Shown here in pieces: positions 28,994 through 58,356 of a DNA stretch of 64,000 nucleotides (within the stretch, counting starts at the first letter, position 1; each line of letters starts with the position of its first letter). Location: positions 1-64,000 of the forward strand of contig CAWHWX010000032.1 of NCBI GenBank assembly GCA_963833125.1. Direction: 5' to 3'. The DNA is from Candidatus Bathyarchaeota archaeon (lineage in GTDB: Archaea > Thermoproteota > Bathyarchaeia > 40CM-2-53-6). The position numbers and the translations under genes are program-made. Under the pieces are notes generated by a model. It saw nothing but the letters and a program-made list of their open reading frames with translations. It was not told the DNA's origin and did not search any database.

Positions 28994-29998
28994 TTGGGCC
29001 ATAGGAAAGTTCACGCGCCGAAACGCGGCTCCTTATCCTACCTACCTAGAGGGCGTGCTTCACGGTGGGTCGGCAGGATTAGGAATTGGCCCGAAGTTGA
29101 GGAGGGACCGAGGTTGCTTGCTTTTGCTGGATTCAAGGCGGGCATGACCTACGCTCTCGCCATTGACACCCGTGAGGGATCGCTTACTTTCGGAAAAGAA
29201 GTCGTCATCTCACTAACAACCCTAGAAGCGCCGCCAATGCTGGCTTGCGCATTGAGGGCCTACACGAAACATTACAAGGGGTTGCAGACTTTCGGCGAGG
29301 CTTGGATGGAGAAACTGCCCAAAGACTTTGAACGTGTCATTTCCGTTCCTGAGAAATTCTCAACTGAGGACGGGTTGAAGAAGATTGAAGGTGGCTTGGA
29401 GAAGATTGAGGAGTTGCGCCTACTCATGGCGACTCAGCCGCGTCTTGCAAAGCACGGAATCAAAGCACCCCAAATGATGGAGGTGAGAATCGGAGGAGGG
29501 TCGATCAAGGATCGATTCGAGTATGGAAAGAAAATGGTCGGCCAAGAAATCAAAGTTGCCGACTTCATCAAGGAGGGGCAAGTTGTCGACGCGATTGGAA
29601 TAACGAAAGGTAAGGGTATTCAGGGCCCCGTTAAGAGGTGGGGCATTCGACGTAAGATTCACAAGGCTCGAAAAACCGTCCGCCAAGTCGGATCAATTGG
29701 TGGCTGGACACCGCACTACGTCATGTATTCAGTCCCGCGTGCTGGGCAGATGGGATTCCACCAGAGAACCGAATACAACAAAATTGTAATGAAAGTAGGC
29801 AACAACGGGAGCGAAATCACGCCAAAGGGTGGCTTCCTAAAGTACGGCATAGTCAACTCAGACTACGTTGCGGTTAAGGGCAGCGTGCCGGGAACAAGAA
29901 ATAGGCTGATCGTGATACGATTGGCAATGCGTCCGCCACCGGAATCGAAACCGGCGAAACTAGATTACCTAAGCCTCGCATCAGTCCAAGGCGACTGA
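28994..29998 (+). CDS. rpl3: 50S ribosomal protein L3 (archaeal type)
   Basis: HAPKRGSL..LPR, GFKAGMT, TKGKGIQGPVKRWG, RAGQMGFHQRTEYNK, KGSVPG. Confidence 0.98.
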   Translation: MGHRKVHAPKRGSLSYLPRGRASRWVGRIRNWPEVEEGPRLLAFAGFKAGMTYALAIDTREGSLTFGKEVVISLTTLEAPPMLACALRAYTKHYKGLQTFGEAWMEKLPKDFERVISVPEKFSTEDGLKKIEGGLEKIEELRLLMATQPRLAKHGIKAPQMMEVRIGGGSIKDRFEYGKKMVGQEIKVADFIKEGQVVDAIGITKGKGIQGPVKRWGIRRKIHKARKTVRQVGSIGGWTPHYVMYSVPRAGQMGFHQRTEYNKIVMKVGNNGSEITPKGGFLKYGIVNSDYVAVKGSVPGTRNRLIVIRLAMRPPPESKPAKLDYLSLASVQGD

Positions 29999-34657: not shown

Positions 34658-34769
34658 GCCTCGGTGGCTCAGCCTGGTAGATTACCTATACGGTAACTGG
34701 GAAGCGGCCGCCTCGTAACTCACGCAAGAAAGCGGCAGGTCGCGGGTTCAAACCCCGCCCGAGGCTCCA
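34658..34769 (+). tRNA. tRNA-Thr(CGT) with a D-arm intron (~34681-34702) and a canonical 37/38 intron (34718-34730), encoded CCA
   Basis: Spliced 77 nt: GCCTCGG TG GCTC AGCCTGGTA GAGC G GCCGC CTCGTAA GCGGC AGGTC GCGGG TTCAAAC CCCGC CCGAGGC TCCA; TTTAA box upstream. Confidence 0.92.
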
Positions 34770-34790
34770 AAACCCGAACCCATACGCATT

Positions 34791-34855
34791 TGTAGATTCT
34801 CATACTGTTTGTCAAATTCTCATACACCGTGTCATTTCTCTCAAACTGCGTGTCA
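34791..34855 (+). repeat. Tn7-family transposon end: 8-bp terminus + three TnsB-type sites
   Basis: TGTAGATT, then CTCATAC-TGTT-TGTCA, CTCATAC-ACCG-TGTCA and CTCAAAC-TGCG-TGTCA at 20-21 bp period; candidate TSD GCATT at 34786-34790. Confidence 0.8.
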
Positions 34856-35057
34856 CTGCGGTTGTTGACTTAATCTGATAAGCCAACTAGAAAAGAGAAA
34901 CGCCATCCCGCAATTGTCTTCTACAGTTACGGGGAGCTAGCCATGATAGTCCACAGATAGATTGAGGAGGTTGCGGGACTATGAATGATTACTCGTTGGA
35001 TCGATAAGCGCTAGTTTTAAGCGGTTGATGCGTCACTATCAGAAGTGTTTGCCCGCC

Positions 35058-36128
35058 ATGAACCCGAAATTCGTTGATCTCTTCTCGGGCATTGGCCTCG
35101 GATCTTTGGGTCTCGTTAGAGCCGGGTTCGAGATCGCTGCGGCAGTAGATATTGATCCAGAAGCGTGCGCGGTCTATAAGGAGAACCTTGGAGTCGAACC
35201 CATTGTGGGTGACCTGCGGCACTTATCGGGGTCTGACATACTGAAACGGATCGGTCTCCGACGATGGAGAATTATCGCTGTGCGTGGGTTGTCCTCCGTG
35301 TCAAGGGTTCTCAACTCTGAGGAAGACGCGGCTCAAGAAATGGGAGAGAGATGGGCGCAAATCGCTGCTGAAAGTGTTTGCCCAGCGCGTGTGGACGAGC
35401 TCTTTCCGAAAATCGTAGTTTTCGAGAATGTGAGAGGAATAACACTTGGACAGAACCGCAGATTCTTGAAGGATTTTATGGCTCACATGAAGCGTCTCGG
35501 TTACTATCTCGACTTCAGGGTCTTGGACTCGGCGTATTACGGCGTGCCCCAGCACCGGCTCAGATTCATCCTAGTAGGGAGCAGGGAACTTCCTCCGAGT
35601 CTTCCGGAGGAGACGCACTCGAACCCGAGGTCTGACAACGAGAAGCCGCGGTGGAAGACCGTCAGGGACGCGATCGCAGACTTGCCCCCCCTTGAAGCCG
35701 GTCAGAGAGACGAAAACATTGCGCTTCATGAGGCAGCCGCACATTCGGAGAACGCGCTCAGAATAATATGCAGTATCCCGGCAAACGGAGGCGGGAGAAA
35801 GAGCCTTCCCAAGAAACTATGGCTGCCGTGCCACAGGAGGCTTGCGAAGAGGAAGCAGCGCGGAGCGGAGAGCATCTATGGGAGGATGCGGTGGGACGAG
35901 CCTTCCCCGACTATAACCACCAGAAGTCACATTCCAAGCTGCGGCCGATTCGTACACCCTTCGCAAAACCGTGGCATCACGCTGCGGGAGGCAGCGCGGC
36001 TGCAGAACATACCAGACGACTTCAAGATTCGGGCACGTGCCAAGGACCAAGCCGCTATTTGGATTGGCAACGCGATGCCACTTGCCCTGGCAGAAGCGCT
36101 AGGCCGGGAAATAATTCATCTCATTTAA
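35058..36128 (+). CDS. dcm: DNA (cytosine-5) methyltransferase (compensating internal frameshifts)
   Basis: DLFSGIG, catalytic GCPPCQGFS in a shifted frame near 35290, FENV, GVPQHR, LREAARLQ, IGNAMP. Confidence 0.92.
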   Translation: MNPKFVDLFSGIGLGSLGLVRAGFEIAAAVDIDPEACAVYKENLGVEPIVGDLRHLSGSDILKRIGLRRWRIIAVRGLSSVSRVLNSEEDAAQEMGERWAQIAAESVCPARVDELFPKIVVFENVRGITLGQNRRFLKDFMAHMKRLGYYLDFRVLDSAYYGVPQHRLRFILVGSRELPPSLPEETHSNPRSDNEKPRWKTVRDAIADLPPLEAGQRDENIALHEAAAHSENALRIICSIPANGGGRKSLPKKLWLPCHRRLAKRKQRGAESIYGRMRWDEPSPTITTRSHIPSCGRFVHPSQNRGITLREAARLQNIPDDFKIRARAKDQAAIWIGNAMPLALAEALGREIIHLI

Positions 36129-36159
36129 GCGTCCGCCCAACTATACGGCATTGGTCTGA

Positions 36160-36591
36160 ATGCCGCGCCGAAGGGACAAGTTCTCGAAGGCGAAGCGCAG
36201 CCTAGTCATGTCCCAAATCCGGAGTAAGAACACCGGGCTGGACGTTTCGATGCGGAGAACTCTGCGGAAGGCCGAGATCAAGTTTGAGGCTTACCCCAAA
36301 ATGTACGGCAACCCCGACTTCCTAGTCGAACAATGCATCGCTCTGTTTTGCGACAGCAGTTTCTGGCACGGACGAAACTGGAGAAAACTGAAGCAGCAGC
36401 TCACGAATGGTTCGAACGCGAAATACTGGGTCGAGCACATAGCTAAGAACAGAAGCCGAGACCGGCTCGTGAATGCGACGCTCCGAAGGCACGGGCTCAA
36501 GGTGATCAGGTTTTGGGATGATGAAATATTCAAGCGTCCAGAGGCTTGCGTGAGAAGAATTAAAGCCGCCAAGCGGCTTATGTCGACTTAA
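36160..36591 (+). CDS. vsr: Very short patch repair endonuclease
   Basis: RSLVMSQIRSKNT, GNPDF, FCDSSFWHG, NRSRD. Confidence 0.92.
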   Translation: MPRRRDKFSKAKRSLVMSQIRSKNTGLDVSMRRTLRKAEIKFEAYPKMYGNPDFLVEQCIALFCDSSFWHGRNWRKLKQQLTNGSNAKYWVEHIAKNRSRDRLVNATLRRHGLKVIRFWDDEIFKRPEACVRRIKAAKRLMST

Positions 36592-36612
36592 GCAATTGAG
36601 AGTGCGAGTTGC

Positions 36613-38614
36613 TTGACCGATCCTCATTCGCCATATGTGATGACGATCTCCCGAACGACCGTAGACAAATTGGGAATCAAACTGTACGACAAGGCGTCCG
36701 CCGTGGTTGCGGAACTCATAGCGAACGCCTACGACGGAGACGCCGAGAACGTGACTGTAAAGATACCACTAAACCGCTGGCTGTCCACAAAGTCTGAAGG
36801 GAAGGTGGTCGATCAGGGCCTAGAAATATCCGTTGAGGACGACGGGCACGGAGTAGAGCCCGGTCGTGTCAACGGCTTTTACCTCACGGTGGGAAAAAAC
36901 CCTCGAGAGGACCCCGGGAGAGGGCCGGTTTCGCCCGAGAAGAAGCGGCCGATATTCGGGCGCAAGGGCATAGGTAAACTCGCGGCCCTTCGGCATCTGC
37001 AAAATCATCGAGGTTGATTTTACCGGAGGAACGAAAGACGAAGCGAATCCAGCGCGGGAGTATCGTATCGCGCACTTCATCCTGAACTATGACGAGATAA
37101 ATTTCGACACCGACGAGCCCTACTACCCGAAGGTTGGGAAAGATGACGGCAAGTTATCGACCAAGAGAGGAACGGTCGTAACACTCAGAAACTTCCTCTA
37201 CAGACGCACTCCGGACGAAGAAACTTTCCGTCACCAGCTACAGCGGATCTTCGGCCTCCAGCTCCCGGATTTCAAGATCGTGGTCGAGAACACCGAGACA
37301 GGGAACAAATTCGTCGTCGGTCAGCTCGATGTTGAGATCGAGGAGGAGACGAAGATCACGGTGGACGACAGGCCCGTCGAGATGCCTGACCACTCTATCC
37401 TGCCCGTCAGCGGATACGTCGCTTACGCCAAGAAGCCCTACAAATACGAGGAGGTGGCAGGGGTGCGGATCTACGCTAGAGGAAAACTCGTCTCATCAAC
37501 GAGAGATTTCGGACTGAAGGCAGGGTTCACAGGAGAACACACGCTAAGGTCGTACCTGACAGGCGAGATACACGCGGACTGGCTAGACGATGAAGAGGAT
37601 CTCATCCACACGGGTCGCCAAGACATACTATGGGACTCAGAAAGAGGAGAGCCGTTCAAGGCTTGGGGGCAGACGCTCCTCAAAGAGCTCGGAAAGAAAG
37701 CATGGACTCCGATGAAGCAGAAAGCTTACAAAGTGTTCCTTGAGAAGTCCGACCTTGAAACCAAGGTTTGGGATCGATTCGGTAAGACACCTGTCGCAGA
37801 TACGGCCATGGCTCTCGGCAAGGCCATCGGCCAGATTGCCGCTATAGAAAGCTTAGACGATCCAGAGTATGTCAAAAGACTGACTGAGATTGTACTCACG
37901 ACAGCGCCCCATAAGATGCTCGTAGACACACTCACTGAGATCGCCGAGACGGCGGTCGAGGGTCCGCTGGATGTCGTCGTCGGGCTGTTCAACGACGCGG
38001 GACTCGCAGAAGCGGCCTCGATGGGCCAGATAGCCCTTGAGAGAGTCGATGCCATCGAGAAGCTCGAAGAGAAGCTCGGTGCTAACCCTCCGGGGTATGA
38101 GAAAGAGCTACAGAAAATTCTGGAAAAATCTCCCTGGCTGATGCACCCGGAGTGGACAGTTCTTCAAGCGAATAAGCCATTTGAAGAACTCCGCACCGCC
38201 TTCGAGAAATGGTACGAGCTCAAATACAACAAGAAGATAGCCACGAAATCGATTGATTTGCAGACGAAGCCGGATTTCATAATGCTCGCGGTTTCCACCA
38301 CCGTGGAGATCGTGGAAATTAAGAAGGCACAATGGGCGCTTACCGACGAGGAGTTCAGCAGGCTGCGAGGCTACTACGACGCCATAGAGCAGTTCATGAA
38401 GGACAACCCGGATTTCAGAAAAGAATTCCCGCGAACACACCTCACACTCATCTGCGACAAAGTGAACCTCTCAAGAAACATCCAACTGGCCTTCGAGAAA
38501 CTAGAGGGCGATGGTGTGTTGACCCGGAAGACTTGGTGGGAAACGCTAGCAAAAACGAAAAAAGTACACGAACAGTTCTTAGAGCAACACCAGCGTCCAG
38601 CAGCGCCGCCTTAA
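36613..38614 (+). CDS. GHKL (HATPase_c_3/MORC-like) ATPase fused to C-terminal PD-(D/E)XK nuclease (frameshift near 36990)
   Basis: ELIANAYD, EDDGHG, GRKGIGKLA; C-terminal EKELQ..L...PWL, KPDF...IVEIKK. Confidence 0.8.
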
Positions 38615-38692
38615 GTCCTGGAAATTCCTTGCTTAACACATTGGCGCGACTCCGCAGCGCCCTCGATAAGCTATGCTAGTCCCATACTGTCG

Positions 38693-38851
38693 TCACTTAG
38701 GCTTCCTTCGGACAATCATTGCGCTATCAGTTATTCCTACTAGAACAAGATCTCCTTCTTTGATCGAGAGTGCCTTCGCAACCTCCTTTGGGATTGTCAT
38801 TCTTAACGAACCGTGGACGCGATTAATCTTAACCTCGAATTCTATTGGCAT
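38693..38851 (-). CDS. AbrB/MazE-like DNA-binding protein
   Basis: GSLRMTIPKEVAKALSIKEGDLV. Confidence 0.85.
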   Translation of the reverse strand: MPIEFEVKINRVHGSLRMTIPKEVAKALSIKEGDLVLVGITDSAMIVRRKPK

Positions 38852-38866
38852 CTTAATCGGCAAAAC

Positions 38867-38942
38867 TTCCATATACAAACCATATACTTAAATAACGCCA
38901 AATACTAGGTATTTGGATAGTATATGGGCAGGATGTATGGAA
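38867..38942. promoter_or_regulatory. Nested palindrome in divergent promoter (putative AbrB operator)
   Basis: CCATATACT..CCAAATAC-TAG-GTATTTGG..AGTATATGG. Confidence 0.55.
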
Positions 38943-39068
38943 ATTGCCAATCGTAATTGTCGAAGCGAAGAATCGTGATGCGTGGGAAATTGCTGAAGAA
39001 ATTCGCGTAATCCTCGGTCAGCGAGCCAAGGTTGTCGAAACATAGCGGTGGATTTCCTCAAGGAGGAT

Positions 39069-39766
39069 ATGAATACTCACAACATCCGTGATTTGTGCAC
39101 ATAATCAGGATGCACGTACGTGTTCGAATTGCATTGAACTGCTACCCGCCTCATTCTGGGACAGACTAACGTGGAGGCGCTTCTCTCCAGGCATTGGCAT
39201 CTATCATGTGACCGAACTGACACAATGCTTGGCTCGAGCATACTTCGAGAGAACCAAACCCACTCAAGAAACGGTCGAATCCGCATGGGCAAAATTGCGA
39301 GGTTCCTTGCTTCACTACGCGGATAGGTCACTAGGCTGGAGCGAACTTCGGTGTCAAAATGAACTTCGAGCACGATAACGAAACAATCACAATTGTTGGC
39401 CAAGTTGACGCGTACGATCCCGAAACAGCGACCATCTATGATCTTAAGACATCACGTTTTGTTAAATGGCAACATGAGAAAGGCTTCCTCCCTCGACAAA
39501 ACCATCGCGCACAGATCCAGTCCTATTACACCATGTTGGATTCGTACGCTATCCCAATAAAACGGCTTGTCTTGATCTATGTGGACGACAAGAATATCCT
39601 CGCCAAAGAAGTTCCACTAGGTTACCGCAAGGAATGGATGATCCGGAGAGCTTCGATTCTGCATAGGGCGTTGAGTGGGAGTCAGATTCCTAAACCCGAA
39701 CCTGACAATTGGTGCAAGTACTGTCCGTTCGTTCAAGTCTGCCCGGCGAAGGGAGGTGCAACCTGA
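39069..39766 (+). CDS. Cas4-like PD-(D/E)XK nuclease with Fe-S cysteines (frameshifts near 39087 and 39350)
   Basis: GGAGG SD; HVTELTQCLARAYF, RGSLLH, GQVDAY, IYDLKT, QIQSY, CKYCPFVQVC. Confidence 0.8.
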
Positions 39767-40994
39767 ATGGGTGGATGCCTCCCCGTACACCCACAGCCAC
39801 GTGAGGGTGAATCGCTCACATCATGGATTGATCACGTTACACGATGCAATGGCATTACAATTCGACAGTTGTTGTCACATTGGGTGAGCGAGGCTGACTG
39901 GAGATACAGGGACCTTGACTTTCTGAAAATAGACGAGCTGAGAATACTTGCCGACCTTGCACGCGTTCAAGGTGGAACGGGCAAGCTGCGCAGTATGGTA
40001 CTAACACCCTGGAAGGCGGTATTCTCAGAACCTAGGAACGAAATGGATCGCAAAGGTTGGGTTTGCTCGCGAGCGACAATTCGATATTGTCCAATCTGCT
40101 TACAAATTGAAGAGCCATACTTCAGGTTATCGTGGCGCCTCCTCTTCCTTCCCCTCTGCGGCCGTCATGGGGTAGTGCTGCAAAGGGGCTCCTCGAGAAT
40201 TATGCCAAATCCGAGTGAAGCGCCTCTGATTAAACCAACTAACTGCACCCTATTGTCACGTTTTAGTTCTTCTGGAATTGGAATTCTTGAATCACAAGCT
40301 CTTTCCCAGGGTTTTGGCTGGTCAGATAGTGGACAGGAATTTTTCCTTGTCCTTCTTACCCTGGTGAGGTACCTCAATCTCTACTTGCAACGCCGAACCG
40401 CTTTGGATAAGCGATTTGAAAGCCCACGGACTGCCTACCGCACCGCCTTTCGATTGGCGAAAGAATGAGGCTGTAGCGGTGCTTCTGATTGAAAGAGCTC
40501 TTGGTCTAGTTGAGGAATGGCCGAGAAATATCGGGAGGTTTGTCCGAGCGAATAGAACCCGCTTCAACAGATTACGCGTGGAGTATGCTGCCCACTTCCC
40601 TAAGACACTAAGGGCTCTGAACGCGGAAAACATCGAACATAATGCTATCAGCAGCGTTGAACATGAGATTGAAAATTTACCTGATTACAAGGAACGCCCA
40701 GACGAAGACCGAGTAAGACGCGCCGTTCAATACTTGCTGGAAACAAACGTTCCAGTCTCCCTAAGAGAGGTCGGTAAAATCACTAAAGTGAGTTTCGAAC
40801 AGCTGAAGAACGAGGAAAAACTGAACAAAATCGTACTAGAAGGAAAGCGAGTGTTCAGATTTAAGCAAGAAGATGAGATTCAAAACGCCATTACGGTGTT
40901 GCGTGGAAGGGGACTATATCCATCGGTCGGGGCTATTGCTACATATCTTGGAAGATCTCATCGATATCTGCATTCACATAAGATCAGAACATGA
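39767..40994 (+). CDS. tniQ: TniQ/TnsD-like target selector with C-terminal HTH-like extension (frameshift near 40400)
   Basis: LPVHPQPREGESLTSWI, YCPICL...YFRLSWRL...CGRH; starts immediately after the Cas4-like stop (TGAATG). Confidence 0.82.
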
Positions 40995-41013
40995 GAAAAG
41001 ATAGAGAGTAATT

Positions 41014-41751
41014 TTAATCCTTCAACGCAGAAACCGCCCAATCAATAGAGTCCTGGAGGCCACTGCCAGGACTCTTCTTCTCAATGAGTACGGCAGCCGT
41101 CTTTATGTTGACTTTTTCATTGATAACCTTCAAAAACTGTTCCAATTTTGAAAAAGCATCCCGGGTCGAGCCATCTTCGACGACGACCATCAACACGCCT
41201 TGTAAACCCTCCCATATGTTTTCCACATGACCCCCGTCCTGAAGGTCCAGCAGCTTGCCTCCTAAAGCGAGGATATCTTCATCCACAAGATTGTCTAATA
41301 CAATAATCCCCAGGAAACGCGCATTGCCTCCTACCGAAATACTATCGTCGTAAGTATATACAATGTCAAAATTGTGGATGAAAGTTGTACCTTTCACCTT
41401 AAGATGCTCATCAGTTTGAACATTGAATGATGTTCTTACATTCAGCAGTTCTCCTATGACGAAACCTCTAGTCGGGTAGTATAACTTTGCAATAATACTT
41501 TCAACAACGGATTTTCGCTTCGGAACAACTCGATAGATTTTTCTTCTTCCTTCGCTTTTGATCGCTACCAGAGACAGAAGCCTTAATCGCTGCAATACGA
41601 GATGGATTGACGGCTGCTTTTTGTGAAGCGCTTTTGCGATCTCGGCCTCAGTAACTCCGTCGGTTTCGATTATGAACTTGGTCGATTCGGCTAAGACCGG
41701 GCTTTCCCGCAGGATAGCATAGAGCTCAGCCTCACTGATCCCTTGGCTCAT
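41014..41751 (-). CDS. ArsR-like wHTH regulator with C-terminal restriction-fold-like domain
   Basis: EAEIAKALHKKQPSIHLVLQRL...EGRRKIYRV; VKGTTFIHNFDIV. Confidence 0.6.
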   Translation of the reverse strand: MSQGISEAELYAILRESPVLAESTKFIIETDGVTEAEIAKALHKKQPSIHLVLQRLRLLSLVAIKSEGRRKIYRVVPKRKSVVESIIAKLYYPTRGFVIGELLNVRTSFNVQTDEHLKVKGTTFIHNFDIVYTYDDSISVGGNARFLGIIVLDNLVDEDILALGGKLLDLQDGGHVENIWEGLQGVLMVVVEDGSTRDAFSKLEQFLKVINEKVNIKTAAVLIEKKSPGSGLQDSIDWAVSALKD

Positions 41752-41780
41752 GAGGCAAGTCAGAGTGAAGCCACACTTTT

Positions 41781-41822
41781 AACATTACCTCTAATGTTAT
41801 ATTATAGATGCTATTATAACAT
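41781..41822. promoter_or_regulatory. AT-rich inverted repeats in the divergent promoter of the regulator and tnsA
   Basis: AACATTA-CCTC-TAATGTT and ATGTTATA...TATAACAT. Confidence 0.5.
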
Positions 41823-41845
41823 AATATTCGAGATGATGTGATGTA

Positions 41846-42658
41846 ATGCCACGCACCTTCCCAGTGAAACCAAACTACGGAGTCGAGATTGGTGTTATGG
41901 AGCCGGTTGAGATTTCTTCGTCGAATGAACCTGCGAGGAAGATTCGGCCGAACTACAGGAGTTCCACAGGCTTCTACGTTACTCGTAAAGGAAAAGCACT
42001 TGCTTTTGAATCAAAACAAGAACGAGACGCACTTCTCACCCTTGACTTTGACCCAAGTGTGCGCGATCTTGTCACTCAGCCACTGAGAATTGGAAACTAT
42101 GTGCCGGATTGCCGTATAGAAACGACTTTTGATCTGACCGTTATTGTGGAAATAAAGTCAGAGAGCGAACTTGTTGAGAAATGGATAGAGCTATCAGCGA
42201 AGTATTCTGCAGCAAATGATTACTGCTTCGCCAAAGGCTTTGAGTTTGTGTTTGTTACTGACTTCTACATCTACTACTCAGAACAATATCGACTCAATAT
42301 ACTGAAAAAAGTAAGATTTCTTGGAGCCCGTCCAGAAGAATCCGACGAACAAGTTCAGGAACAACTCGTTAAGCTCCTAGGTCAGATGCCATTATCCGTC
42401 GGTTCACTAGCCAAGAAGATCGAAGCGCCACTGGACGAGGCCAACAGAATTCGAGAAATTTGCAGACTTCTCTGTTCTGGTTCAGCTCACATTTTCAAAA
42501 CCCCCACCCCACACCTCAAGGACTGCTTAATCTCAACCACCGAGGAAGGATGTGACACATTCCGTTCCCATGTCTTCAGCTTCGAGCAAATGAAAGAACG
42601 ACTTCGAACCCATCCTTATCGACAACTCGAAGGAGGATTTGCCAGACTTGTTAATTGA
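41846..42658 (+). CDS. tnsA: TnsA-like endonuclease
   Basis: FESKQERD, TQP, YVPD, IVEIK. Confidence 0.85.
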   Translation: MPRTFPVKPNYGVEIGVMEPVEISSSNEPARKIRPNYRSSTGFYVTRKGKALAFESKQERDALLTLDFDPSVRDLVTQPLRIGNYVPDCRIETTFDLTVIVEIKSESELVEKWIELSAKYSAANDYCFAKGFEFVFVTDFYIYYSEQYRLNILKKVRFLGARPEESDEQVQEQLVKLLGQMPLSVGSLAKKIEAPLDEANRIREICRLLCSGSAHIFKTPTPHLKDCLISTTEEGCDTFRSHVFSFEQMKERLRTHPYRQLEGGFARLVN

Positions 42659-44636
42659 ACCGGGGTCTAAGATCTCGATCAACGACCAAGTCTTCACAGT
42701 CATAGACGGGACGGAAATCAACAAAGCAGAGATCAAGAGCGACTCGTCCGGACATGTATATTGCGTAGATCTCATGAATAAGATACGAACAGGGGACGCA
42801 CTATCCCTCATAGGTTCAGATCGACAATCTAATCGCCTATCGCATTTGGGCATTCTCTCACTCACCGATGAACAGCACGCTGAGGCGCGACGCCGCTACG
42901 TAGCTATCCTCGCAATCCTCCACATGAAGAAACGAACCTCCCATGAGAAAGAGGAAATACGGAAGCAATTCGCAAGGCAGCTGTGGAGACTCGCTGTTTC
43001 CTCAAGGACGATCAAGCGGTGGATAGAGAGATACACACTATCCGGATTCAAAGGTCTCGTAACAAGCGAGTCTTTTGGAGGAAAGGGAGGAACAAGAACC
43101 GATAAAGAATCCGAATCGATCCTTCAAAAGGTCATAGAAGAACAATATTTCACAAAGCAACAAAAGAATAAAGCGGAAGTCTACCGCGAATTCGAATCAG
43201 AGAGCAATCTTAAAGGTCTTACAAGTGTAGATGAGAACGGAAACGTGCGGCCGCCAATACCGCGCTCGACAATTTACCGTAGGCTAGCCCTTCTCGATCA
43301 AAGAGAAGTCACGTTGAGGCGTCTAGGGAACAGGGCCTACGTGCAAAAGCACTGTCTCAAAGGGGGAAGGTATCCTGACGTGGAATATCCATTAGAGACA
43401 ATTTTAATCGACCATACGAAGCTTGACATAATCCTGCGAGATCCAATAACAAGAAAACCCATTGGTAGACCATGGATCACAGTTGCGATAGACGCATTTA
43501 GTCGATGCATCTGGGCATTCTACCTAAGTCTGGAACCACCTAACGCAGACACGGTTGGTTTAGTAATTATAATTGGTTGCAAGATCAAAAGTCAACTTGC
43601 GAAGTCACTCGGCTGCGAATCTGAATGGCCTGTCTATGGACTCCCGTCCAAATACACACTGACAATGGCAGAGACTTCAGAGCAAAACAACTGGAAAAAG
43701 GCTGTGAAGCACAAGGAATCTCCCTCGTCAGAAGACCAATCAAAACGCCTGAGTTCGGCGGAATTATAGAACGCTTCTTCGGCACACTCAACACCGAACT
43801 AATCCACAACTTGCCTGGAACAACTCGCTCAAACGTAATGAGTCTGAAGAACGGAGACTACGATCCAGAAAAGGAATCCCTCCTTGAACTGGAAGAGCTT
43901 GAACACCTCATCGCTAGATTCATTGTAGATCAATATCACAATACCCCGCACCGCGGGAATCAATACGACTCCCCTAAGAAAATGGAAAGAGGGAATTGAA
44001 GAAAATGCAATTGCCCCTTCTGAACCCGACGATATCGAACGTTTCAGACAAGATTTCCTCCCCTATGTCGAGGGCCCTAACGGAACCCGTCAGATCGAGC
44101 GAGATGGGATACACTACCTGGGATTGGTCTACTATGCAAGCGAATTGAATCACTTAACACGTAACGAAAACGGCGGAAAAATACCAAAAGCATATTTCAT
44201 TAAATATGACCCACAAGACCTTCGATACGTCTACATTTACGACGACGAAAACGACTGCTACCACGCACTAAGTCTCAGTGAACGCCCCATTGAGCCTTTC
44301 ACTAAACGCAACCTCGAGATCAGCTCAAGGCAAAAGCGAGAGACGGCCACCGACAAACTCGATCAACACAGACGCCTAGACGCAATCCAAGAACGACGAG
44401 AATTTCTCACGAGCAGGATTGAGGGGAACAAAAGAGCTCGTAGAACAATGGCCTCAGAAAGATCGGAGCGCGGTCGCCGTTCTCGCACAATCCCTCTCAC
44501 AAATCCAATGAATGCCTCTGACGAAGACGATAATGTGAACAACGATTCTGAGAGCTCGGATAACACGTCGTCTGAAATCGTATACTCCACCGATGACCAA
44601 GAGGAAGAAGTTGAATCGAATGAAGATCTACAATGA
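42639..44636 (+). CDS. tnsB: TnsB/TniA Mu-like DDE transposase (frameshifts near 43640 and 43960)
   Basis: IDHT (D), GRPWITVAIDAFSR, HTDNG (D), GIIERFFGT (E), YHNTPH, KYDPQDL. Confidence 0.92.
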
Positions 44637-45511
44637 CACAAATTATTCAGGTTGATCATTTAACCGCCCATGTCAGATCACGATTAAACAGATCTATTGA
44701 TGAGCGAATCAAGGATATTCAGGCGCTGACATATGTTCCATATCCCAAAGCCGAATACGTTCTCTCATTAATGCATCGACTCTGCTCCGAGCCAATGTCG
44801 GGAAGACCTCGTGGACTTACCATTTCTGCGGTTAGTGGAAACGGCAAAACCACCATAACAAATACGTTCCTCTACAAACATCCGATGCGCGAGACAACTG
44901 AAGCCAGAATTATACCCGTCTTGAAAGTAGAGGCACCACCGGTTCCCAGTGAGAAAAGGATCCTCGGCGGGATCTTGAATGGTTTCAGCTCAGGAGACGC
45001 CATCGAAGCAGGCGACGTCGAGACGAGAATGCGACGAATCAAGATCCTTGTCCATAGATGCCAAGTTAAACTAATGGTCCTCGACGAATCCAATAACTTG
45101 CTCGCGGGAACAGCAAGAGCAATGGAAGAATGCTGCAACGTATTGAAGTACCTCTCCAATCAACTGGGCATCCGAATTGTTCTCGTTGGCACAAAACGTG
45201 TTGAAAACGTTCTGAGGTCGGATCCACAACTCCTTTCGCGCTTTCCAATAGTTGAATTGCCGTTATGGAAAGACGGGAGATGTTACCGGAGATTTCTCGA
45301 AATGCTCGAATCGGCACTACCCTTGGCAAATGCCAGCGATCTGGCGTCCGACGAGAAAGCTTTCGCTCTCTTAGAACACTCCCACGGAGTACTGGGCGAC
45401 ATTGTAATGACCGTCAAAGACGCAGCGATTTGCGCTCTACGCAATCACGAAGAACGCATAACCACGGATATACTGAAGTGCCCCTTTTCAGTTCTCAAGA
45501 AAAGTCGCTGA
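44633..45511 (+). CDS. tniB: TniB/TnsC AAA+ ATPase
   Basis: Walker A SGNGKT, Walker B MVLDE, DPQLLSRF. Confidence 0.92.
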   Translation: MTQIIQVDHLTAHVRSRLNRSIDERIKDIQALTYVPYPKAEYVLSLMHRLCSEPMSGRPRGLTISAVSGNGKTTITNTFLYKHPMRETTEARIIPVLKVEAPPVPSEKRILGGILNGFSSGDAIEAGDVETRMRRIKILVHRCQVKLMVLDESNNLLAGTARAMEECCNVLKYLSNQLGIRIVLVGTKRVENVLRSDPQLLSRFPIVELPLWKDGRCYRRFLEMLESALPLANASDLASDEKAFALLEHSHGVLGDIVMTVKDAAICALRNHEERITTDILKCPFSVLKKSR

Positions 45512-45550
45512 ACACGATATCGTACACCATGATTTCGTACGACGAGGGAT

Positions 45551-46538
45551 ATGATGGAAACAGATATCGCAGTAGGACAACTCATTCGACAGAGTCTATG
45601 GCCAATACATCCGCCACCTTTACGCCGGCGAGTCTTTGGAATCGTGGATAACTAGACAAGCCTATGCAAACTGCTGCTCTCTCAACACTTTCTTACCCAG
45701 CTATCTCAAGACATATCCCACGCATTCAGGGAGAGAGATTACTCTCGACTTAGACTTCCTAAACGGGAATGACGAATCTCTTCAAATAATTAGTGGCCTT
45801 ATCGGTAGGAGACTTGCTGGAAACATGACGTTGCACTTCTTCAGGCACGTCTTAGATATAGGCAGGGAAGCTGAGAAAGCCAAAGGGCGATGGCGAGGCC
45901 CCTCTACTTGCGGATTTAATTGGGTTGTTCCTAGGCGTGATGGACGGATGTATTGTCCAGTATGCTTAGCTGGAGACAAGACTACTCACTTTCGCTTAGC
46001 TTGGCGACTAAGGTTCGCACCGATTTGCGTCAAGCATAAGGTGCTTCTGGAATCCGATTGCGGTCATTGCCACCATCTGATGAACCATTTCGATGATAAC
46101 GCCCATTACGATATAGGAAAATGTCCACAATGTGAATCATCACTTAGTTCTGCGCTACCCAAAGCACTTGATTCGAATGAGGACGGTTACGTTGCTATTT
46201 CGAACCTTTTGGGATTGCTCTATTCCACGGTGGGACTTCAAGAGATTGGTTGGGAAGAAAGTAAGGCCGACCTATTTGCTAGCCTGAAGCTCGTTGTTCT
46301 AATGTTGCTAGCCACAGCCAAATCTCCAGTTCCCGCCTACCGAAGAACTTTTCGTGATGCATCTATGATCTATGGATTAATGGGACGGGCGTGGAGAATG
46401 TTGCTAGATTCCGCAGACATTCAACAATTCATTGCGAATCATCGGGGGCTTTTCCATTACCTTACACGCAAAAGATATCCCTACGTCTGTCCAAAATATT
46501 TCAACAGATACACGATGATTATTGCTACGCCTTCATGA
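45551..46538 (+). CDS. tniQ: TniQ family protein (frameshift near 45620)
   Basis: WPIHPPP..GESLESWI, YCPVCL...FRLAWRL...CVKH..L...CGHC, CPQC. Confidence 0.88.
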
Positions 46539-47043
46539 ATGTGCTGATGATCATGAACTCAGCGGATTTCTTGGGAAAAATAGGTTCTGCGGTGAGGGAA
46601 TTTTACGATCACGACTCCATACTAACAATGCTGAACACGGAAAGGCCGATAGCGCATAGAGTGGCTTTCTATCTGGACCCGCTTTTCGAAGACTGGGATG
46701 TAGATTGCGAGTACAATCGCTATGGGAAGGAGAAGATCAAAGAGTTGGAAAAAATACGCGAGTGCGACCCGAGCGGAAGACCGATAGAATATACCCGGAT
46801 ATAGTGATACACGAAAGAATGTCGGAAGACAGGAATAACATTGCAGTAATAGAAATCAAGCCGAAACCCGACATAGAAGACTGCGACAGAATGAAACTAG
46901 AACTTATGACTAGGAAGGGAGACGAGGACAAATACAAATATGAATTCGGTTTGTTTTTGGGATTCGAGCCCAGCGGATGCACGTGGATTTTATTCGTAGG
47001 CGGGGAAAGGAATAGCGACGGAAGGATTGAGGCAAAGGCATAG
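46535..47043 (+). CDS. Small PD-(D/E)XK nuclease-like protein (frameshift near 46770)
   Basis: ERPIAHR..YL, VDCEYNR, YPDIVIH, VIEIK; ATGA overlap with tniQ. Confidence 0.6.
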
Positions 47044-47127
47044 ACACTCTAACCACATCTCAAATGATCCTCTCCAAACTACGTCAAATGGATTTCCGAA
47101 ATGAACTGACAAAACCGAACTCAGCAT

Positions 47128-47646
47128 TTGAATACTATCAAGGACTTAGCCATCGCCAAATCCAACTCTCCACGATTCTTCCAACAAACCTTCCAACAAT
47201 GCCTCACCCAACTCGCGGAAGGGTGCCACTCCCCAACCGACTTTGAAATCGCGAAACAGCAAATCCCGGAAATCGTCACGGAAGCCGTCCAACGGCTACG
47301 CGAAAGAACCGTGTCCCTAGCGAACCTGGAGTACCGAGTTGAACTAAGAGAGGACCCACACGAAAAGTTGACGTCGAAGAGGCTGCCGCAACCCTACCAG
47401 GTGGCTTGGTTGCTCACGAAGCAGGGAAAGGCTCCGGTCTGCGGAGAGATGGTCGATTTCGCGAAAGTGTTTCCCTTCAGATTGCAGGGAAGACAATTCA
47501 CCGTCAAACCCACCCCACAAATAAACTCGAAGGAGATCGACGTAGAGGACTACATCCTCAGCCTACTCGCCTCACTATCACAGGTCTTCGATCCGATGAA
47601 TATTCGACTCAAAATGAATCCGACGACCCTCTCAGATTTCGTTTAA
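47128..47646 (+). CDS. Hypothetical protein
   Basis: 172-aa ORF; no motif recognised. Confidence 0.4.
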   Translation: MNTIKDLAIAKSNSPRFFQQTFQQCLTQLAEGCHSPTDFEIAKQQIPEIVTEAVQRLRERTVSLANLEYRVELREDPHEKLTSKRLPQPYQVAWLLTKQGKAPVCGEMVDFAKVFPFRLQGRQFTVKPTPQINSKEIDVEDYILSLLASLSQVFDPMNIRLKMNPTTLSDFV

Positions 47647-50536: not shown

Positions 50537-51853
50537 GTGCCCATAGGTTTGATGTTTGGAATGACCAACCGGACTCTGGAAAGGATTCTTCAACTAGAAA
50601 ATCAGCATTCTACGTATAGAAGCCACTGTCTAAATCTCATCGTGTCCGAAAATGTAGCTAGTCCTTCAGTCCGTAGGAGGCTCTCATCTGACTTCGAATG
50701 CCGCTACGGAAATGCGTACGCTCCCACTTTGTCCACCGATTGGGAGGCTTTCGCCAAGGTGAGGTGGTACGAAGGTCTTCAGTACGTAGAAAACGTTGAG
50801 AAGATATGTAATACGTTGCTACGGCAACTCTTTGATGCGAAATACGCTGACTATCGACCATTATCAGGAAGCTCAGCGATTTTGGCGAATTGGCTGAGCT
50901 TAACGGAACCTGGCGACACGATTGTCACAACCCGTGATTATGACGGTGGACATGGATCAGGTTGGGACGATTGCGCAACGATTTTGGGTCGAAAGGTCAC
51001 ACATTGGCCCTTCGACTCTAATGAGTTTAGAATTGATGTCGACAAAGCGGAACGTATGATTCGACGGACTAAACCTAAACTCCTAGTCTTCGGTGCCAGT
51101 CAAATCTTGTTTCCCGCTCCAATCAGTGAACTAAAGTCAGTCGCTGATGATGTCAGCGCATACTGCGTCTACGACGGCTCACATGTTATGGGGCTCTTAG
51201 CAGGAAAACGTTTGCAAGATCCTCTCAGAGAAGGTGCAATCGCTTTGTTCGGAAGTACGCACAAGACATTTCCCGGCCCACAAGGGGGATTGATTGTATC
51301 AAACGCTCAACATGAGATTTTGGAGAAGTTAGACAGAACATTGAGCCCCACCTTGTTTGACAATTATCACCAACACCGAGTTGCAGCCCTAGCCGTAGCT
51401 TCTGCAGAAATGATTGCCTTCGGTCAGGCCTATGCGGATCAGATAATTAGAAACGCGAAAGCCCTTGGACAAGCCTTGAATGAGGAAGGCTTCACTGTTG
51501 TCGGGTCACACAAAGGATTCACCCAGACACATCAGGTATTGTTGGACGTGAGACCTCTGAAGAGAGATGGTCGTGAATTAGCAAAAGTCCTTGCCTCATG
51601 CAATATCATAACAAACCAAATTCATCTTCCCGGCGACCCTTCTGAAGACAGATTCGGAGGAGTTCGATTGGGGACGGCCGAGGTCACAAGGACTGGAATG
51701 AAAGAAAATGAGATGAAGACGGTGGCTTCGCTGTTCCGGTTGTGCTTGATCGATCGCAGAGGAACAGGCCATGTTAAGAGGCAAGTCATTAAATTCAAGG
51801 CGCGATTCAATCGACTAAAATACTCTTTTGATGAAGGGCTCCCTGCATACTGA
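50537..51853 (+). CDS. glyA: Serine hydroxymethyltransferase family protein (divergent paralog)
   Basis: LNLIVSEN, GGH, YDGSHVMGL, GSTHKTFPGPQGG, GVRLGTAEVT. Confidence 0.88.
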   Translation: MPIGLMFGMTNRTLERILQLENQHSTYRSHCLNLIVSENVASPSVRRRLSSDFECRYGNAYAPTLSTDWEAFAKVRWYEGLQYVENVEKICNTLLRQLFDAKYADYRPLSGSSAILANWLSLTEPGDTIVTTRDYDGGHGSGWDDCATILGRKVTHWPFDSNEFRIDVDKAERMIRRTKPKLLVFGASQILFPAPISELKSVADDVSAYCVYDGSHVMGLLAGKRLQDPLREGAIALFGSTHKTFPGPQGGLIVSNAQHEILEKLDRTLSPTLFDNYHQHRVAALAVASAEMIAFGQAYADQIIRNAKALGQALNEEGFTVVGSHKGFTQTHQVLLDVRPLKRDGRELAKVLASCNIITNQIHLPGDPSEDRFGGVRLGTAEVTRTGMKENEMKTVASLFRLCLIDRRGTGHVKRQVIKFKARFNRLKYSFDEGLPAY

Positions 51854-51874
51854 ACCTCAGGTTCTAAGAATTCT

Positions 51875-52192
51875 TCAAATCTTCATCAGAAGAGAACCAT
51901 ATCCTTGCACTTGCGCCCTCACCTTCGCAATTCGAAGCCCATTCCACATAGTCGCTTGGTTGGCGCTCACAACAGGTTTACCAAGATCCTCTTCCAAAGG
52001 TTGCAGTACTTCAGCAGTAGGCAATGCATTGCATGCAGTGAAAATTCCATCCGAGTGTTTTGTATCTATTTCCTTGCCGAATTCGTATCCACTATCGGCT
52101 AGAAACCTCTTCAAACGCAGATTAACGTCATCCCCATAACACGTTCCGACAGCGACCGTCCGTATCCCGAGTTCTTTCAACGCCCTTACCAC
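51875..52192 (-). pseudogene. Deleted remnant of Asp/Glu racemase (maleate isomerase) family gene
   Basis: DGIFTACNALP...LGKPVVSANQATMW; internal and 5' parts missing. Confidence 0.65.
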
Positions 52193-52323
52193 TGACGATG
52201 AGGTCGTCGAACCGGGACACCCGCCCCTTCATGACGTTTTGGATGAGTTCATGTCGTTTTACGGACTACTAGACGTCGTCAGTTCATGAAAACCCAACAT
52301 GTCGTCATTCGATTTGCGCTCAA

Positions 52324-53673: not shown

Positions 53674-53965
53674 TGGCGGACTGCTCCTATCGTTAGGTTG
53701 AGACTAATCATTCATTTAAAACCAGACCGGTCAGGATTACGGACTCTTCAGAAAACTGCAATTTCCTGCAGCGCGTTGTACTTCCTTCCGAGAATATTCG
53801 ATAGGTTCTACTTCCTTCCTCGAGACTGGCGCGAAATCTGAGCGTTTCCTAATAATTGCTAGCCCCTCCAGCATCCTACTAGGTTTCAAATACCTTCTGG
53901 GATCCATCTGAATGCTATTCAAAAGAGAGAGTGATTCTTCTTGAGACTTGTAAATGCTTAACCAG

Positions 53966-54700: not shown

Positions 54701-55001
54701 GCTATGCATTGAAGGAACTTGACATAAGTTATTCGGAATGTAAGGGCTTTTTGAATGGTATATCCTCATAATAGCAGAGGATCATCTATATCTTCAATTC
54801 GGCTATCCTTTTGACAGGTTTTCATAACGATGAACATCGAGGTCACTTTTGAGAGCTTTATTCTGTCCTACCATGCGAATGAGATCTCATGATAGGCGAT
54901 TGAGAACTCCTAAATTCTGAAGGCTCGAAGAAAGCGTAGACACCGCGATCAGCGCAAATCGTCTTTTCGAAACGGTTCCAACCAATCGAAACGGCTTTAG
55001 G

Positions 55002-56098: not shown

Positions 56099-56123
56099 TA
56101 TCACGCCCTATCTTACCCACAAC

Positions 56124-58204: not shown

Positions 58205-58356
58205 AAATATGACCGCAGCTGCTAAGCCCCGTCGTTATTTTAAATTTGCGCACGCTGTGAAGGTCGGATGACTTGCTTATAGTTAACAAGGTCAAAGAAA
58301 TTTTCGACTGGCCGAACAATATATGGCCCAGAACTCTAATTCAGCTGCATAATTCA

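What the first reader, a model, noticed from the sequence alone, without database searches (positions are those of the whole stretch)
34658..47043. Archaeal Tn7-like transposon with two TniQ target selectors, homed 21 bp downstream of a tRNA-Thr
Seen: a complete tnsA-tnsB-tniB-tniQ operon, a second stand-alone tniQ, and a transposon end starting 21 bp after the tRNA CCA. Known: Tn7-family elements use TniQ/TnsD to insert a fixed distance downstream of conserved genes, including tRNAs; characterised examples are overwhelmingly bacterial. Inferred: a cut-and-paste (TnsA-containing), tRNA-homing element in a TACK archaeon with two target-selection pathways.
Basis: partly seen in the sequence, partly recalled or inferred. 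Interest (0 to 1): 0.85.

Follow-up and report, generated by a model that had tools for sequence, protein, structure and literature searches.

The report
Archaeal Tn7-like transposon beside tRNA-Thr
A Tn7-type transposon sits a fixed 21 bases downstream of a threonine tRNA gene in an archaeal chromosome, which is real but belongs to a kind of archaeal element already described in a 2025 preprint, and only one of its two ends can be found here.

Summary
The core observation holds. An intron-bearing tRNA-Thr(CGU) lies at 34658-34769. A TGT-initiated array of four ~20-nt-spaced repeats starts 21 nt after the CCA. Downstream are a Dcm-Vsr-restriction cargo, a Cas4-like gene abutting tniQ1, a divergent wHTH gene, and tnsA-tnsB-tniB(tnsC)-tniQ2.

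Two independent relatives sit at the same tRNA-Thr(CGU): G016 (same genus, intact, ~15.2 kb) and metagenomic contig L055. L055 starts 20 nt after the CCA with the same terminal 8-mer and near-identical repeat spacing. This strongly supports tRNA-Thr homing.

- The operon is not literally complete. tnsB is read in three frames, and tniQ1, the Cas4-like gene and the restriction gene are each split.
- These breaks cannot be called decay. 43 of 163 conserved orthologs in this assembly are frame-split, the same rate per kb.
- No second end or target-site duplication was found anywhere in the genome.
- The gene block is flipped relative to the tRNA-proximal end compared with both relatives.
- tniQ1 is not stand-alone; it is coupled to a Cas4-family nuclease gene.

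A July 2025 preprint already reports archaeal Tn7 elements, including a Bathyarchaeia element at tRNA-Thr. Verdict: new member of a known kind, moderate interest.

The parts
34658..34769 (+). tRNA-Thr(CGU) with a D-loop insertion and a 13-nt anticodon-loop intron, CCA encoded; presumed attachment-site gene
   Evidence: Rfam 40.7 bits. ARAGORN calls Thr(cgt) after in-silico removal of the D-loop insertion. Orthologous tRNA in G016, G019 and others.
34770..34790 (+). 21-nt spacer between the CCA and the transposon terminus. Its first 12 nt, plus 11 nt of the tRNA, recur exactly on contig C18.
34791..34870 (+). tRNA-proximal transposon end: terminal TGTAGATT, then four putative TnsB-binding repeats at +21, +40, +60 and +81 from the CCA
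   Evidence: Same terminal 8-mer and spacing as L055's tRNA-proximal end.
35025..36128 (+). cargo: C5 cytosine DNA methyltransferase (Dcm type)
   Evidence: PF00145, 150.6 bits; PADLOC MTase_II/DruM
36160..36591 (+). cargo: Vsr very-short-patch endonuclease
   Evidence: PF03852, 53.6 bits; PADLOC Vsr
36613..38614 (+). cargo: BbrUII/HgiDII-family restriction enzyme in two pieces (36613-37017 HATPase part; 37280-38614)
   Evidence: PF13589; NF050001, 93 bits, below cut-off; PADLOC REase_II profile positions 5-109 and 316-578 of 695
39166..39766 (+). Cas4-family PD-(D/E)XK nuclease gene, frame change at ~39355. Its stop directly abuts the tniQ1 start.
   Evidence: tblastn with the G016 199-aa protein: residues 1-64 in frame 1, residues 63-197 in frame 2, 62-65% identity. 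Cas4 motifs conserved. Pfam and PADLOC Cas4 matches.
39767..40994 (+). tniQ1: TnsD-like long TniQ (405 aa in G016), frame change at ~40394; candidate tRNA-Thr selector
   Evidence: PF06527, 58.6 bits. 66% and 61% identity to G016 TniQ1 in two frames. Profile hits TnsD 8v32 and CAST TniQs.
41014..41751 (-). divergently transcribed winged-helix (TrmB/ArsR-like) gene, held in the same position in all three elements
   Evidence: weak Pfam/NCBIfam hits. Positional equivalents G016 10873-11649 and L055 2540-3316 hit HTH_IclR. Sequence similarity between ours and G016 is not significant.
41846..42658 (+). tnsA (endonuclease subunit), catalytic E/D/K pattern conserved
   Evidence: PF08722, 30.7 bits; alignment
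42639..44636 (+). tnsB (DDE transposase) read in three frames; single-base frame changes at ~43645 and ~43957; DDE residues conserved
44633..45511 (+). tniB/tnsC AAA+ regulator, intact
   Evidence: PF05621, 153.4 bits. Profile hits VchTnsC (3e-29), ShTnsC and Tn7 TnsC.
45636..46538 (+). tniQ2: short TniQ (300 aa) at the end of the core operon
   Evidence: PF06527, 63 bits; 40% identity to G016 TniQ2
46705..47043 (+). 112-aa ORF of unknown function between tniQ2 and the breakpoint; membership in the element is uncertain
   Evidence: only sub-threshold hits; no homolog in the 81 related loci searched
47137..47646 (+). not part of the element: the C-terminal 169 codons of the 610-aa PolB of a multi-copy three-gene cassette; marks a breakpoint just past tniQ2

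Best explanation
This is a Tn7-family transposon integrated at a tRNA-Thr(CGU) attachment site in an archaeal chromosome. The host is probably Bathyarchaeia (Thermoproteota).

Inferred mechanism, by analogy with Tn7:
- A TnsD-like TniQ binds the 3' part of the tRNA gene.
- It recruits the TnsC-family ATPase (TniB), which activates the TnsA+TnsB heteromeric transposase.
- The element is cut out and pasted about 20 nt past the CCA, with one particular end facing the tRNA, so the tRNA gene stays intact.

tniQ1 is the best candidate for the tRNA-Thr selector. It is the long TniQ, it is coupled to a Cas4-family gene, and it is far more conserved between elements at this site than the core machinery. 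tniQ2 travels with the core operon and may be the core adaptor or serve a second pathway.

The cargo is a Dcm-Vsr-restriction module.

Shown here: gene content, the tRNA-proximal end and its spacing, and independent relatives at the same tRNA.
Inferred: which TniQ reads the tRNA, cut-and-paste chemistry, and current activity.

The element's state is open. Only one end is found, the gene block is flipped relative to relatives, and four genes carry frame breaks that cannot be told apart from assembly noise.
For: - All four Tn7 protein families are present, with Pfam scores above cut-off.
- TnsA E/D/K and TnsB DDE residues are conserved. The three tnsB pieces tile seamlessly on intact relatives.
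- The TniB profile hits solved TnsC proteins, and the TniQ1 profile hits TnsD/TniQ.
- The end array is non-random: about 4e-7 clusters expected by chance.
- G016 (same genus) has an intact Cas4-like/TniQ1/HTH/TnsAB/TniB/TniQ2 element. Its TGT end is 27 nt after the orthologous tRNA, and a degenerate far end ~15.2 kb away.
- L055 has the same gene set next to a tRNA-Thr(CGU) (Rfam 55.5 bits). Its end starts TGTAGATT 20 nt after the CCA, with sites at +20, +39, +59, +81, against ours at +21, +40, +60, +81.
- Seven relatives without tns genes lack the repeats at this tRNA.
- Identity to G016 is 61-66% for TniQ1 and the Cas4-like protein, with 70% nucleotide identity over 2 kb. It is only 28-40% for TnsA, TnsB, TniB and TniQ2.
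- The preprint describes a Bathyarchaeia element with fused tnsAB at tRNA-Thr.
Against: - No second end and no target-site duplication were found in the contig or genome. A bounded, mobile unit is therefore not demonstrated.
- The gene block faces the tRNA-proximal end the opposite way from G016 and L055.
- tnsB, tniQ1, the Cas4-like gene and the restriction gene are frame-broken in the sequence as given.
- A 23-nt exact copy of the tRNA 3' end plus spacer on contig C18, and hypervariable flanks in relatives, show that other kinds of elements also use this tRNA.
- No sequencing run was available to verify the joins.
- The host's class-level name rests on indirect evidence only.
Confidence: 0.8

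Rival explanations
1. Immobilised relic. The element did home to tRNA-Thr, but it is now a fossil. Its distal end was lost in a deletion or rearrangement that also truncated the neighbouring PolB cassette, and some of the frame breaks are real inactivating mutations.
For: - No far end was found anywhere in the 39 contigs.
- There is an abrupt junction with a PolB fragment lacking its first 441 codons at 47137.
- Five frame breaks lie in ~11.5 kb, none in a homopolymer longer than 4 nt.
- The restriction gene is split while its methylase is intact, a common decay pattern (recalled).
Against: - The break density (~0.43 per kb) matches the genome-wide background: 43 of 163 orthologs are split over 183 kb of coding sequence.
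- Apart from single-base shifts the genes are clean, with catalytic residues intact and no in-frame stops in the tiled tnsB pieces.
- G016's far end is itself degenerate, so ours could simply be unrecognisable.
- The MAG is only 88% complete.
Confidence: 0.4
2. Composite or rearranged locus. The end at 34791 and the tns block do not form one native unit in this arrangement. Either the interior was inverted (biologically or by misassembly), or the end plus the Dcm-Vsr-restriction cargo is the remnant of a different Tn7-like insertion next to a second element.
For: - The order end/cargo/Cas4-like/tniQ1/HTH/tnsA/tnsB/tniB/tniQ2 is the exact flip of G016 and L055 relative to the tRNA-proximal end. 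That end has the same site spacing in ours and L055.
- Our core genes belong to a different lineage (closest L026-L028, TniB 43-54%) from the G016-like Cas4/tniQ1 module.
- The assembly is error-prone.
Against: - No internal ends or repeat arrays lie between the cargo and the tns block.
- No strong inverted repeats flank the block that could mediate inversion; the best are 23 nt at 78% complementarity.
- With only three elements, gene orientation relative to the ends may simply vary in this clade.
Confidence: 0.2
3. Coincidental adjacency. The tRNA is a general island hotspot, and the Tn7-like element merely landed in pre-existing island DNA without recognising the tRNA.
For: - Every genome of the genus examined has different DNA after this tRNA.
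- A partial tRNA 3' copy on C18 suggests integrase-type events.
- Nearly all 45 kb downstream is non-syntenic.
Against: - Three elements with 28-48% identical transposases lie 20, 21 and 27 nt from the CCA of tRNA-Thr(CGU), with the same end facing it.
- No integrase was found among the 20 downstream ORFs scanned.
Confidence: 0.05

Closest known systems
Archaeal Tn7-family 'Clade V' element of a Ca. Bathyarchaeia MAG (Thesier et al., bioRxiv 10.1101/2025.07.27.667033)
   Same: Both are in an archaeal host and sit adjacent to a tRNA-Thr gene taken as the att site. Both have tnsA/tnsB, tnsC and tniQ, with defence-type cargo. G016's element in the same genus fits the published description (fused tnsAB, ~15.2 kb here against 15.8 kb published).
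   Different: - Our tnsA and tnsB are separate ORFs, as in our closest core relatives L027 and L028.
- Our core proteins are only 28-40% identical to G016's.
- Our gene block is flipped relative to the tRNA-proximal end, and only one end was found.
- The main text of the preprint does not mention a Cas4-like gene (0 occurrences).
- I could not see its supplementary tables, so I cannot say whether this assembly is among its 24.
Tn7 (E. coli) TnsABC+D pathway at attTn7/glmS
   Same: Heteromeric TnsA+TnsB transposase, TnsC-family ATPase and a TniQ-family selector. TGT terminus with several closely spaced repeats at the target-proximal end. Insertion a fixed short distance downstream of a conserved gene, leaving it intact (Tn7 features recalled).
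   Different: The target is a tRNA gene. There is no TnsE. The TnsC is short (292 aa) and closest to Tn6677 VchTnsC among solved structures. Cargo lies between the target-proximal end and the tns genes. The 5-bp duplication and the second end are not shown.
Dual TniQ/TnsD Tn7-like elements and tRNA-homing CASTs (I-B2, I-D, V-K), Faure et al. 2023, PMC10293859
   Same: Two TniQ-family genes in one element and tRNA attachment sites. Selectors are modular, here seen as a Cas4/tniQ1 module shared between unrelated cores.
   Different: No Cascade/Cas12k genes and no CRISPR array are present. The only cas-family gene is a solo Cas4-like nuclease.
Tn6022-like TnsB-TniB-TniQ operons on Acinetobacter baumannii plasmids (element name recalled, not tested)
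   Same: These are the best plasmid-borne bacterial TniB matches. Gene order is TnsB-like, TniB, TniQ.
   Different: Identity is only 33%. The host is bacterial, and no tRNA linkage was examined.

Membership tests
Tn7 family (Tn7-like transposons) | TnsB DDE transposase of the Mu/retroviral-integrase type | tested here: met
   Mu-transpos_C and HTH hits. The gene aligns end to end with intact 628-871-aa relatives, with D, D and E conserved. The frame is broken twice in this assembly.
Tn7 family (Tn7-like transposons) | TnsA endonuclease subunit (cut-and-paste) | tested here: met
   PF08722, 30.7 bits against a 26.5 cut-off. E/D/K pattern conserved in a 4-sequence alignment. The NCBIfam TnsA-like model scores below cut-off (39.9 against 110).
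Tn7 family (Tn7-like transposons) | TnsC/TniB AAA+ regulator | tested here: met
   PF05621, 153.4 bits. The profile hits VchTnsC (3e-29), ShTnsC (4e-19) and Tn7 TnsC (3e-11).
Tn7 family (Tn7-like transposons) | TniQ/TnsD target selector | tested here: met
   Two PF06527 genes, 58.6 and 63 bits. The TniQ1 profile hits TnsD 8v32_J at 1e-4.
Tn7 family (Tn7-like transposons) | Two inverted ends, TGT...ACA, each with multiple TnsB-binding repeats | tested here: inconclusive
   One end is clear. No inverted counterpart exists in the contig or in the 39 contigs.
Tn7 family (Tn7-like transposons) | 5-bp target-site duplication | tested here: inconclusive
   It cannot be scored without the second end. 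GCATT recurs at 47124-47128 but follows CTCA, not ACA. About a 9% chance occurrence is expected in that interval (my estimate). Intact PolB copies do not join the two flanks.
Tn7 family (Tn7-like transposons) | Insertion at a fixed distance downstream of a conserved gene, in one orientation | tested here: met
   Three elements lie 21, 20 and 27 nt from the CCA. The repeat-rich end faces the tRNA in all three. The interior gene orientation differs in ours.
Tn7 family (Tn7-like transposons) | Demonstrated transposition and target immunity | not testable with these tools
   This needs a mate-out or similar assay.
Archaeal Clade V (Thesier et al. 2025) | Fused tnsAB | tested here: not met
   tnsA (41846-42658) and tnsB (from 42639) are separate, overlapping ORFs in different frames. 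Separate genes are also found in the closest core relatives L027 and L028. G016 and L055 do have the fusion.
Archaeal Clade V (Thesier et al. 2025) | tRNA-Thr attachment site in a Bathyarchaeia host | tested here: inconclusive
   tRNA-Thr is met. The host is shown to be archaeal. Bathyarchaeia is only inferred, from G016's likeness to the published element and from one named Cas4-like homolog, P0083.
CRISPR-associated transposon (CAST) | Cas effector genes and a CRISPR array or guide inside the element | tested here: not met
   No effector family appears among the 20 ORFs scanned. Rfam finds only the tRNA. No array was found by TRF or the direct-repeat search.

The most novel reading that the evidence does not exclude
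The Cas4-family nuclease gene and the TnsD-like tniQ1 form a portable tRNA-Thr homing cassette that has moved between unrelated Tn7 cores. It is 61-66% identical between two elements whose transposases are ~30% identical. In this reading the Cas4-like nuclease is a working part of archaeal Tn7 transposition, for example in target-site or end processing, and not passive cargo. That would be a new accessory function for Cas4 and a new type of Tn7 selector module.
Probability: 0.12. Interest if true: 0.65.

Novelty: new member of a known kind. Interest (0 to 1): 0.38.

Why it matters
Archaeal Tn7 elements are rare. The preprint found 27 TniQ proteins in 13,858 assemblies. Here, 2 of 401 sampled genomes of the class and 2 of 105 of the order carry this family.

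This locus, together with G016 and L055, gives three independent elements at one tRNA-Thr(CGU) site with a shared end architecture. That is a natural comparison set for working out how an archaeal TniQ reads a tRNA gene.

The contrast between a conserved Cas4-like/tniQ1 module and divergent cores is direct evidence for selector modularity in archaea. It also points to which protein to test.

For scanning work, the case shows that frame breaks in this assembly must not be read as pseudogenes.

Tried and rejected
- Far end. I tried motif scans, blastn-short of the 80-nt end against all contigs, a relaxed terminal-15-mer search, and k-mer plus Smith-Waterman comparison with 46539-47140. The Smith-Waterman score was 27 against a null mean of 23.5, and 20% of nulls reached it. 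Nothing was found.
- GCATT duplication with insertion into PolB. Intact PolB copies do not contain the left-flank 9-mer upstream of the homology start, so this is not supported.
- 'Decayed element' from frame breaks. I first took ORF coverage (median 0.65 per 10-kb bin) as showing a clean assembly. The ortholog control overturned that.
- Empty site. The G019/G014 shared flank was not found next to anything useful in our genome. The G014 neighbour gene lies on contig C18.
- Integrase-type island. No integrase was found in 20 ORFs scanned.
- Genome-contig scan with a 2-sequence TniB alignment: 1 distant bacterial hit only.
- Sequencing runs: none was listed.
- TniQ1 structure: mean pLDDT 78.7. 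Foldseek against PDB gave 0 hits at E<=0.001.
- Complex prediction of TniQ1 with the Cas4-like protein: no verdict, score 0.00 against a mark of 0.32. This is evidence neither for nor against binding.
- The listing of cluster members gave no names or accessions.
- The preprint's supplementary tables were not readable. They may show whether this assembly was already catalogued.

Full report
**What is in the sequence**

Rfam finds one tRNA in the window, at 34658-34766 on the + strand (40.7 bits, cut-off 29). It has a 28-nt D-loop region where the model has 4 nt, and 15 nt where the anticodon loop has 2 nt. ARAGORN finds nothing. When the D-loop insertion is removed in a script, ARAGORN calls tRNA-Thr(cgt) with a 13-nt canonical intron. 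CCA is encoded at 34767-34769.

Twenty-one nucleotides later, at 34791, the sequence reads TGTAGATTCTCATAC. Copies of TGTCA-N-CTCAWAC follow, so sites start at +21, +40, +60 and +81 from the CCA. The motif occurs 21 times in the 3.07-Mb genome on both strands, three of them here. About 4e-7 clusters of three within 60 nt are expected by chance.

**Genes**

- A C5 methyltransferase (35025-36128).
- Vsr (36160-36591).
- A BbrUII/HgiDII-family restriction enzyme in two pieces (36613-37017 and 37280-38614).
- A Cas4-family nuclease gene (39166-39766), whose stop abuts the start of tniQ1.
- tniQ1 (39767-40994).
- A divergently transcribed winged-helix gene (41014-41751, minus strand).
- tnsA (41846-42658), tnsB (42639-44636), tniB/tnsC (44633-45511) and tniQ2 (45636-46538).

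TnsA keeps its E/D/K pattern, and the Cas4-like protein keeps the Cas4 cysteines and the D..DxK motif. The TniB profile matches solved TnsC proteins, best Tn6677 VchTnsC at 3e-29. The TniQ1 profile matches TnsD and CAST TniQs. There is no Cas effector and no CRISPR array, so this is not a CAST.

**Frame breaks**

- tnsB is read in three frames, with single-base changes near 43645 and 43957.
- tniQ1 changes frame near 40394.
- The Cas4-like gene changes frame near 39355.
- The restriction gene is split.

The three tnsB pieces tile without loss on intact 628-871-aa relatives, and the DDE residues are present.

I first judged the assembly clean from ORF coverage. A proper control overturned this. 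Of 163 orthologs of G016 ORFs of at least 200 aa (183 kb of coding sequence), 43 are split over more than one frame in our genome, many of them more than once. Five breaks in about 11.5 kb is the same rate. The breaks therefore cannot be used as evidence of decay, nor can the operon be called complete from this sequence. No sequencing run was listed to settle it.

**Host**

Ribosomal protein L3 at 28994-29998 passes the archaeal equivalog (395.7 bits against 308.7). The 34 kb upstream of the tRNA is syntenic with two congeners at 77-92% identity. The class name is inferred only. A same-genus genome carries an element that fits the preprint's Bathyarchaeia element, and one Cas4-like homolog (63% identical) is named Ca. 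Bathyarchaeia by its source.

**Relatives**

G016 (same genus, 3 contigs) has the orthologous tRNA followed by a TGT end 27 nt after the CCA, with at least five TGTCG-N-GGAA repeats. On the strand reading toward the tRNA it has:
- a Cas4-like gene (199 aa);
- TniQ1 (405 aa);
- TnsA-TnsB fused (871 aa);
- TniB (336 aa);
- TniQ2 (286 aa).

All of these are intact, and an HTH gene lies on the other strand. A degenerate inverted terminus about 15.2 kb away matches 11 of 14 terminal bases by eye.

A metagenomic contig, L055, carries the same gene set, with TnsAB 48% identical to G016's. Beyond tniQ2 it has an end starting TGTAGATT 20 nt after the CCA of a tRNA-Thr(CGU) (Rfam 55.5 bits). Its sites at +20, +39, +59, +81 and +106 show nearly our spacing and our terminal 8-mer.

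Of eight relatives whose tRNA flank I read, only G016 has such an end. The other seven carry unrelated sequence.

The family is rare:
- the TniB protein was found in 2 of 41 relatives;
- the TniB profile hit 2 of 401 genomes of the class;
- the TniQ1 profile hit 2 of 105 genomes of the order;
- TniQ1 homologs number 17 proteins in the 5.8-billion-protein collection.

The closest TniB proteins are 54-60% identical and come only from metagenomes. Of 553 pattern matches in metagenome contigs, 405 encode relatives, but only three loci reach 43-54% identity. Those three have intact TnsB and are too short to show ends.

**Modularity**

Between our element and G016, the Cas4-like protein and TniQ1 are 61-66% identical, with 70% nucleotide identity over 2 kb. 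TnsA, TnsB, TniB and TniQ2 are only 28-40% identical. Our core is closer to L026-L028.

This fits a portable selector module shared by elements that use the same tRNA, in line with the modular selectors described by Faure et al. (passages read). It is my reason to name TniQ1 as the likely tRNA reader. This assignment is inferred, not shown.

The Cas4-like family is large (140 hits). The gene is therefore probably a captured lineage gene, and its role is open.

**What does not fit**

No second end or duplication exists in the contig or genome.

Just past tniQ2, at 47137, begins the last 169 codons of a 610-aa PolB. That PolB belongs to a three-gene cassette with full copies on contigs C16 and C31, so a breakpoint lies at 47043-47137.

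Nearly all of the remaining 33 kb of the contig has no counterpart near this tRNA in relatives. It encodes metabolic genes and no integrase.

The gene block is flipped relative to the repeat-rich, tRNA-facing end when compared with G016 and L055. I cannot tell whether this is natural variation, an inversion or an assembly fault.

A 23-nt exact copy of the tRNA 3' end plus spacer on contig C18 shows that other integration events have used this tRNA.

**Comparison with the literature**

The preprint by Thesier et al. (bioRxiv 10.1101/2025.07.27.667033) reports Tn7-family elements in seven archaeal phyla. I read the outline, Results parts 1-2 of 3, the Discussion, the legends of Figs S1-S12 and searched passages; the supplements were not available.

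It reports three predicted tRNA-targeting elements, one of them a 15.8-kb Bathyarchaeia element with fused tnsAB next to tRNA-Thr. It also reports functional reconstitution of an Asgard element. Dual TniQ/TnsD selectors are also known.

What this locus adds:
- a second, divergent core lineage at the same site;
- the shared end architecture;
- the Cas4-like/tniQ1 cassette, which the preprint's main text does not mention (0 occurrences). In a search for Cas4, TniQ and transposon (23 papers hold all three terms, 12 listed), none of the 12 listed titles or abstract openings describes such a cassette, and of these I read passages only in Faure et al., where Cas4 appears only as a CRISPR adaptation gene.

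**Verdict**

This is a real Tn7-like element at a tRNA-Thr attachment site in an archaeon. It is a new member of a known kind. Its integrity and boundaries are unresolved because of assembly quality. Interest is moderate.

Noticed in passing
whole genome G000 (e.g. C15:28735-31228; C18:36288-37266): The assembly is indel-noisy. 43 of 163 conserved orthologs are split over two to five reading frames relative to G016. Any pseudogene call in this genome needs read support.
   Followed up: yes
window 47137-47646 and 59588-59832; G000 C16:433206-436065; C31:6702-9557: A multi-copy three-gene cassette (135-aa, 177-aa and 610-aa family-B polymerase genes). Full copies lie on two other contigs and in relatives, also near G016's island. 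The window holds only fragments. It is possibly a mobile element in its own right.
   Followed up: partly
G000 C18:188674-188696 (minus strand): An exact 23-nt copy of the last 11 nt of tRNA-Thr plus the first 12 nt of its spacer. It is followed by sequence like the native tRNA flank of G003/G002. It looks like an attR-type partial tRNA left by an integrase-type element.
   Followed up: partly
window 34658-34769: The tRNA-Thr carries two insertions, one in the D-loop (a non-canonical position) and one at the canonical anticodon-loop position. ARAGORN misses it and its orthologs in L017, L018 and L055.
   Followed up: yes
window 13563-13676: A ~114-nt segment recurs at 89-93% identity at several places in G013, G014 and G019. 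Rfam at gathering threshold reports nothing there. It is an unidentified small repeat.
   Followed up: no
many G000 contigs (e.g. C5:117138-117239; C18:30765-30866): A ~100-nt repeat family with more than 25 copies at 81-92% identity. It was found through a match to G014 sequence downstream of its tRNA-Thr.
   Followed up: no
L017 6190-6306 (G019) and the G014 equivalent: The ~100 nt immediately 3' of tRNA-Thr are 84% identical between G019 and G014, although the genomes are otherwise much more diverged there. The adjacent ~85 nt of G014's flank has partial copies on several G000 contigs.
   Followed up: no
window 50537-64000 and C32 64001-80186: A strain-specific block of metabolic genes not found near this tRNA in relatives: SHMT, M20 peptidase, three arylmalonate-decarboxylase-like genes, Ldh_2, luciferase-like monooxygenases, two aldehyde dehydrogenases, an ABC solute-binding protein and an amino-acid permease.
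   Followed up: partly
window 46701-46708: The terminal 8-mer TGTAGATT recurs in direct, not inverted, orientation 160 nt after tniQ2, at the start of the 112-aa ORF. No repeat array follows it, so it is probably chance (read by eye).
   Followed up: partly
L056 5709-5730: In a second metagenome contig that is 100% identical to L055 over 5.7 kb, identity stops 17 nt into the tRNA 3' end and different sequence follows. This could be a different intron arrangement, a partial tRNA or a chimeric contig.
   Followed up: no
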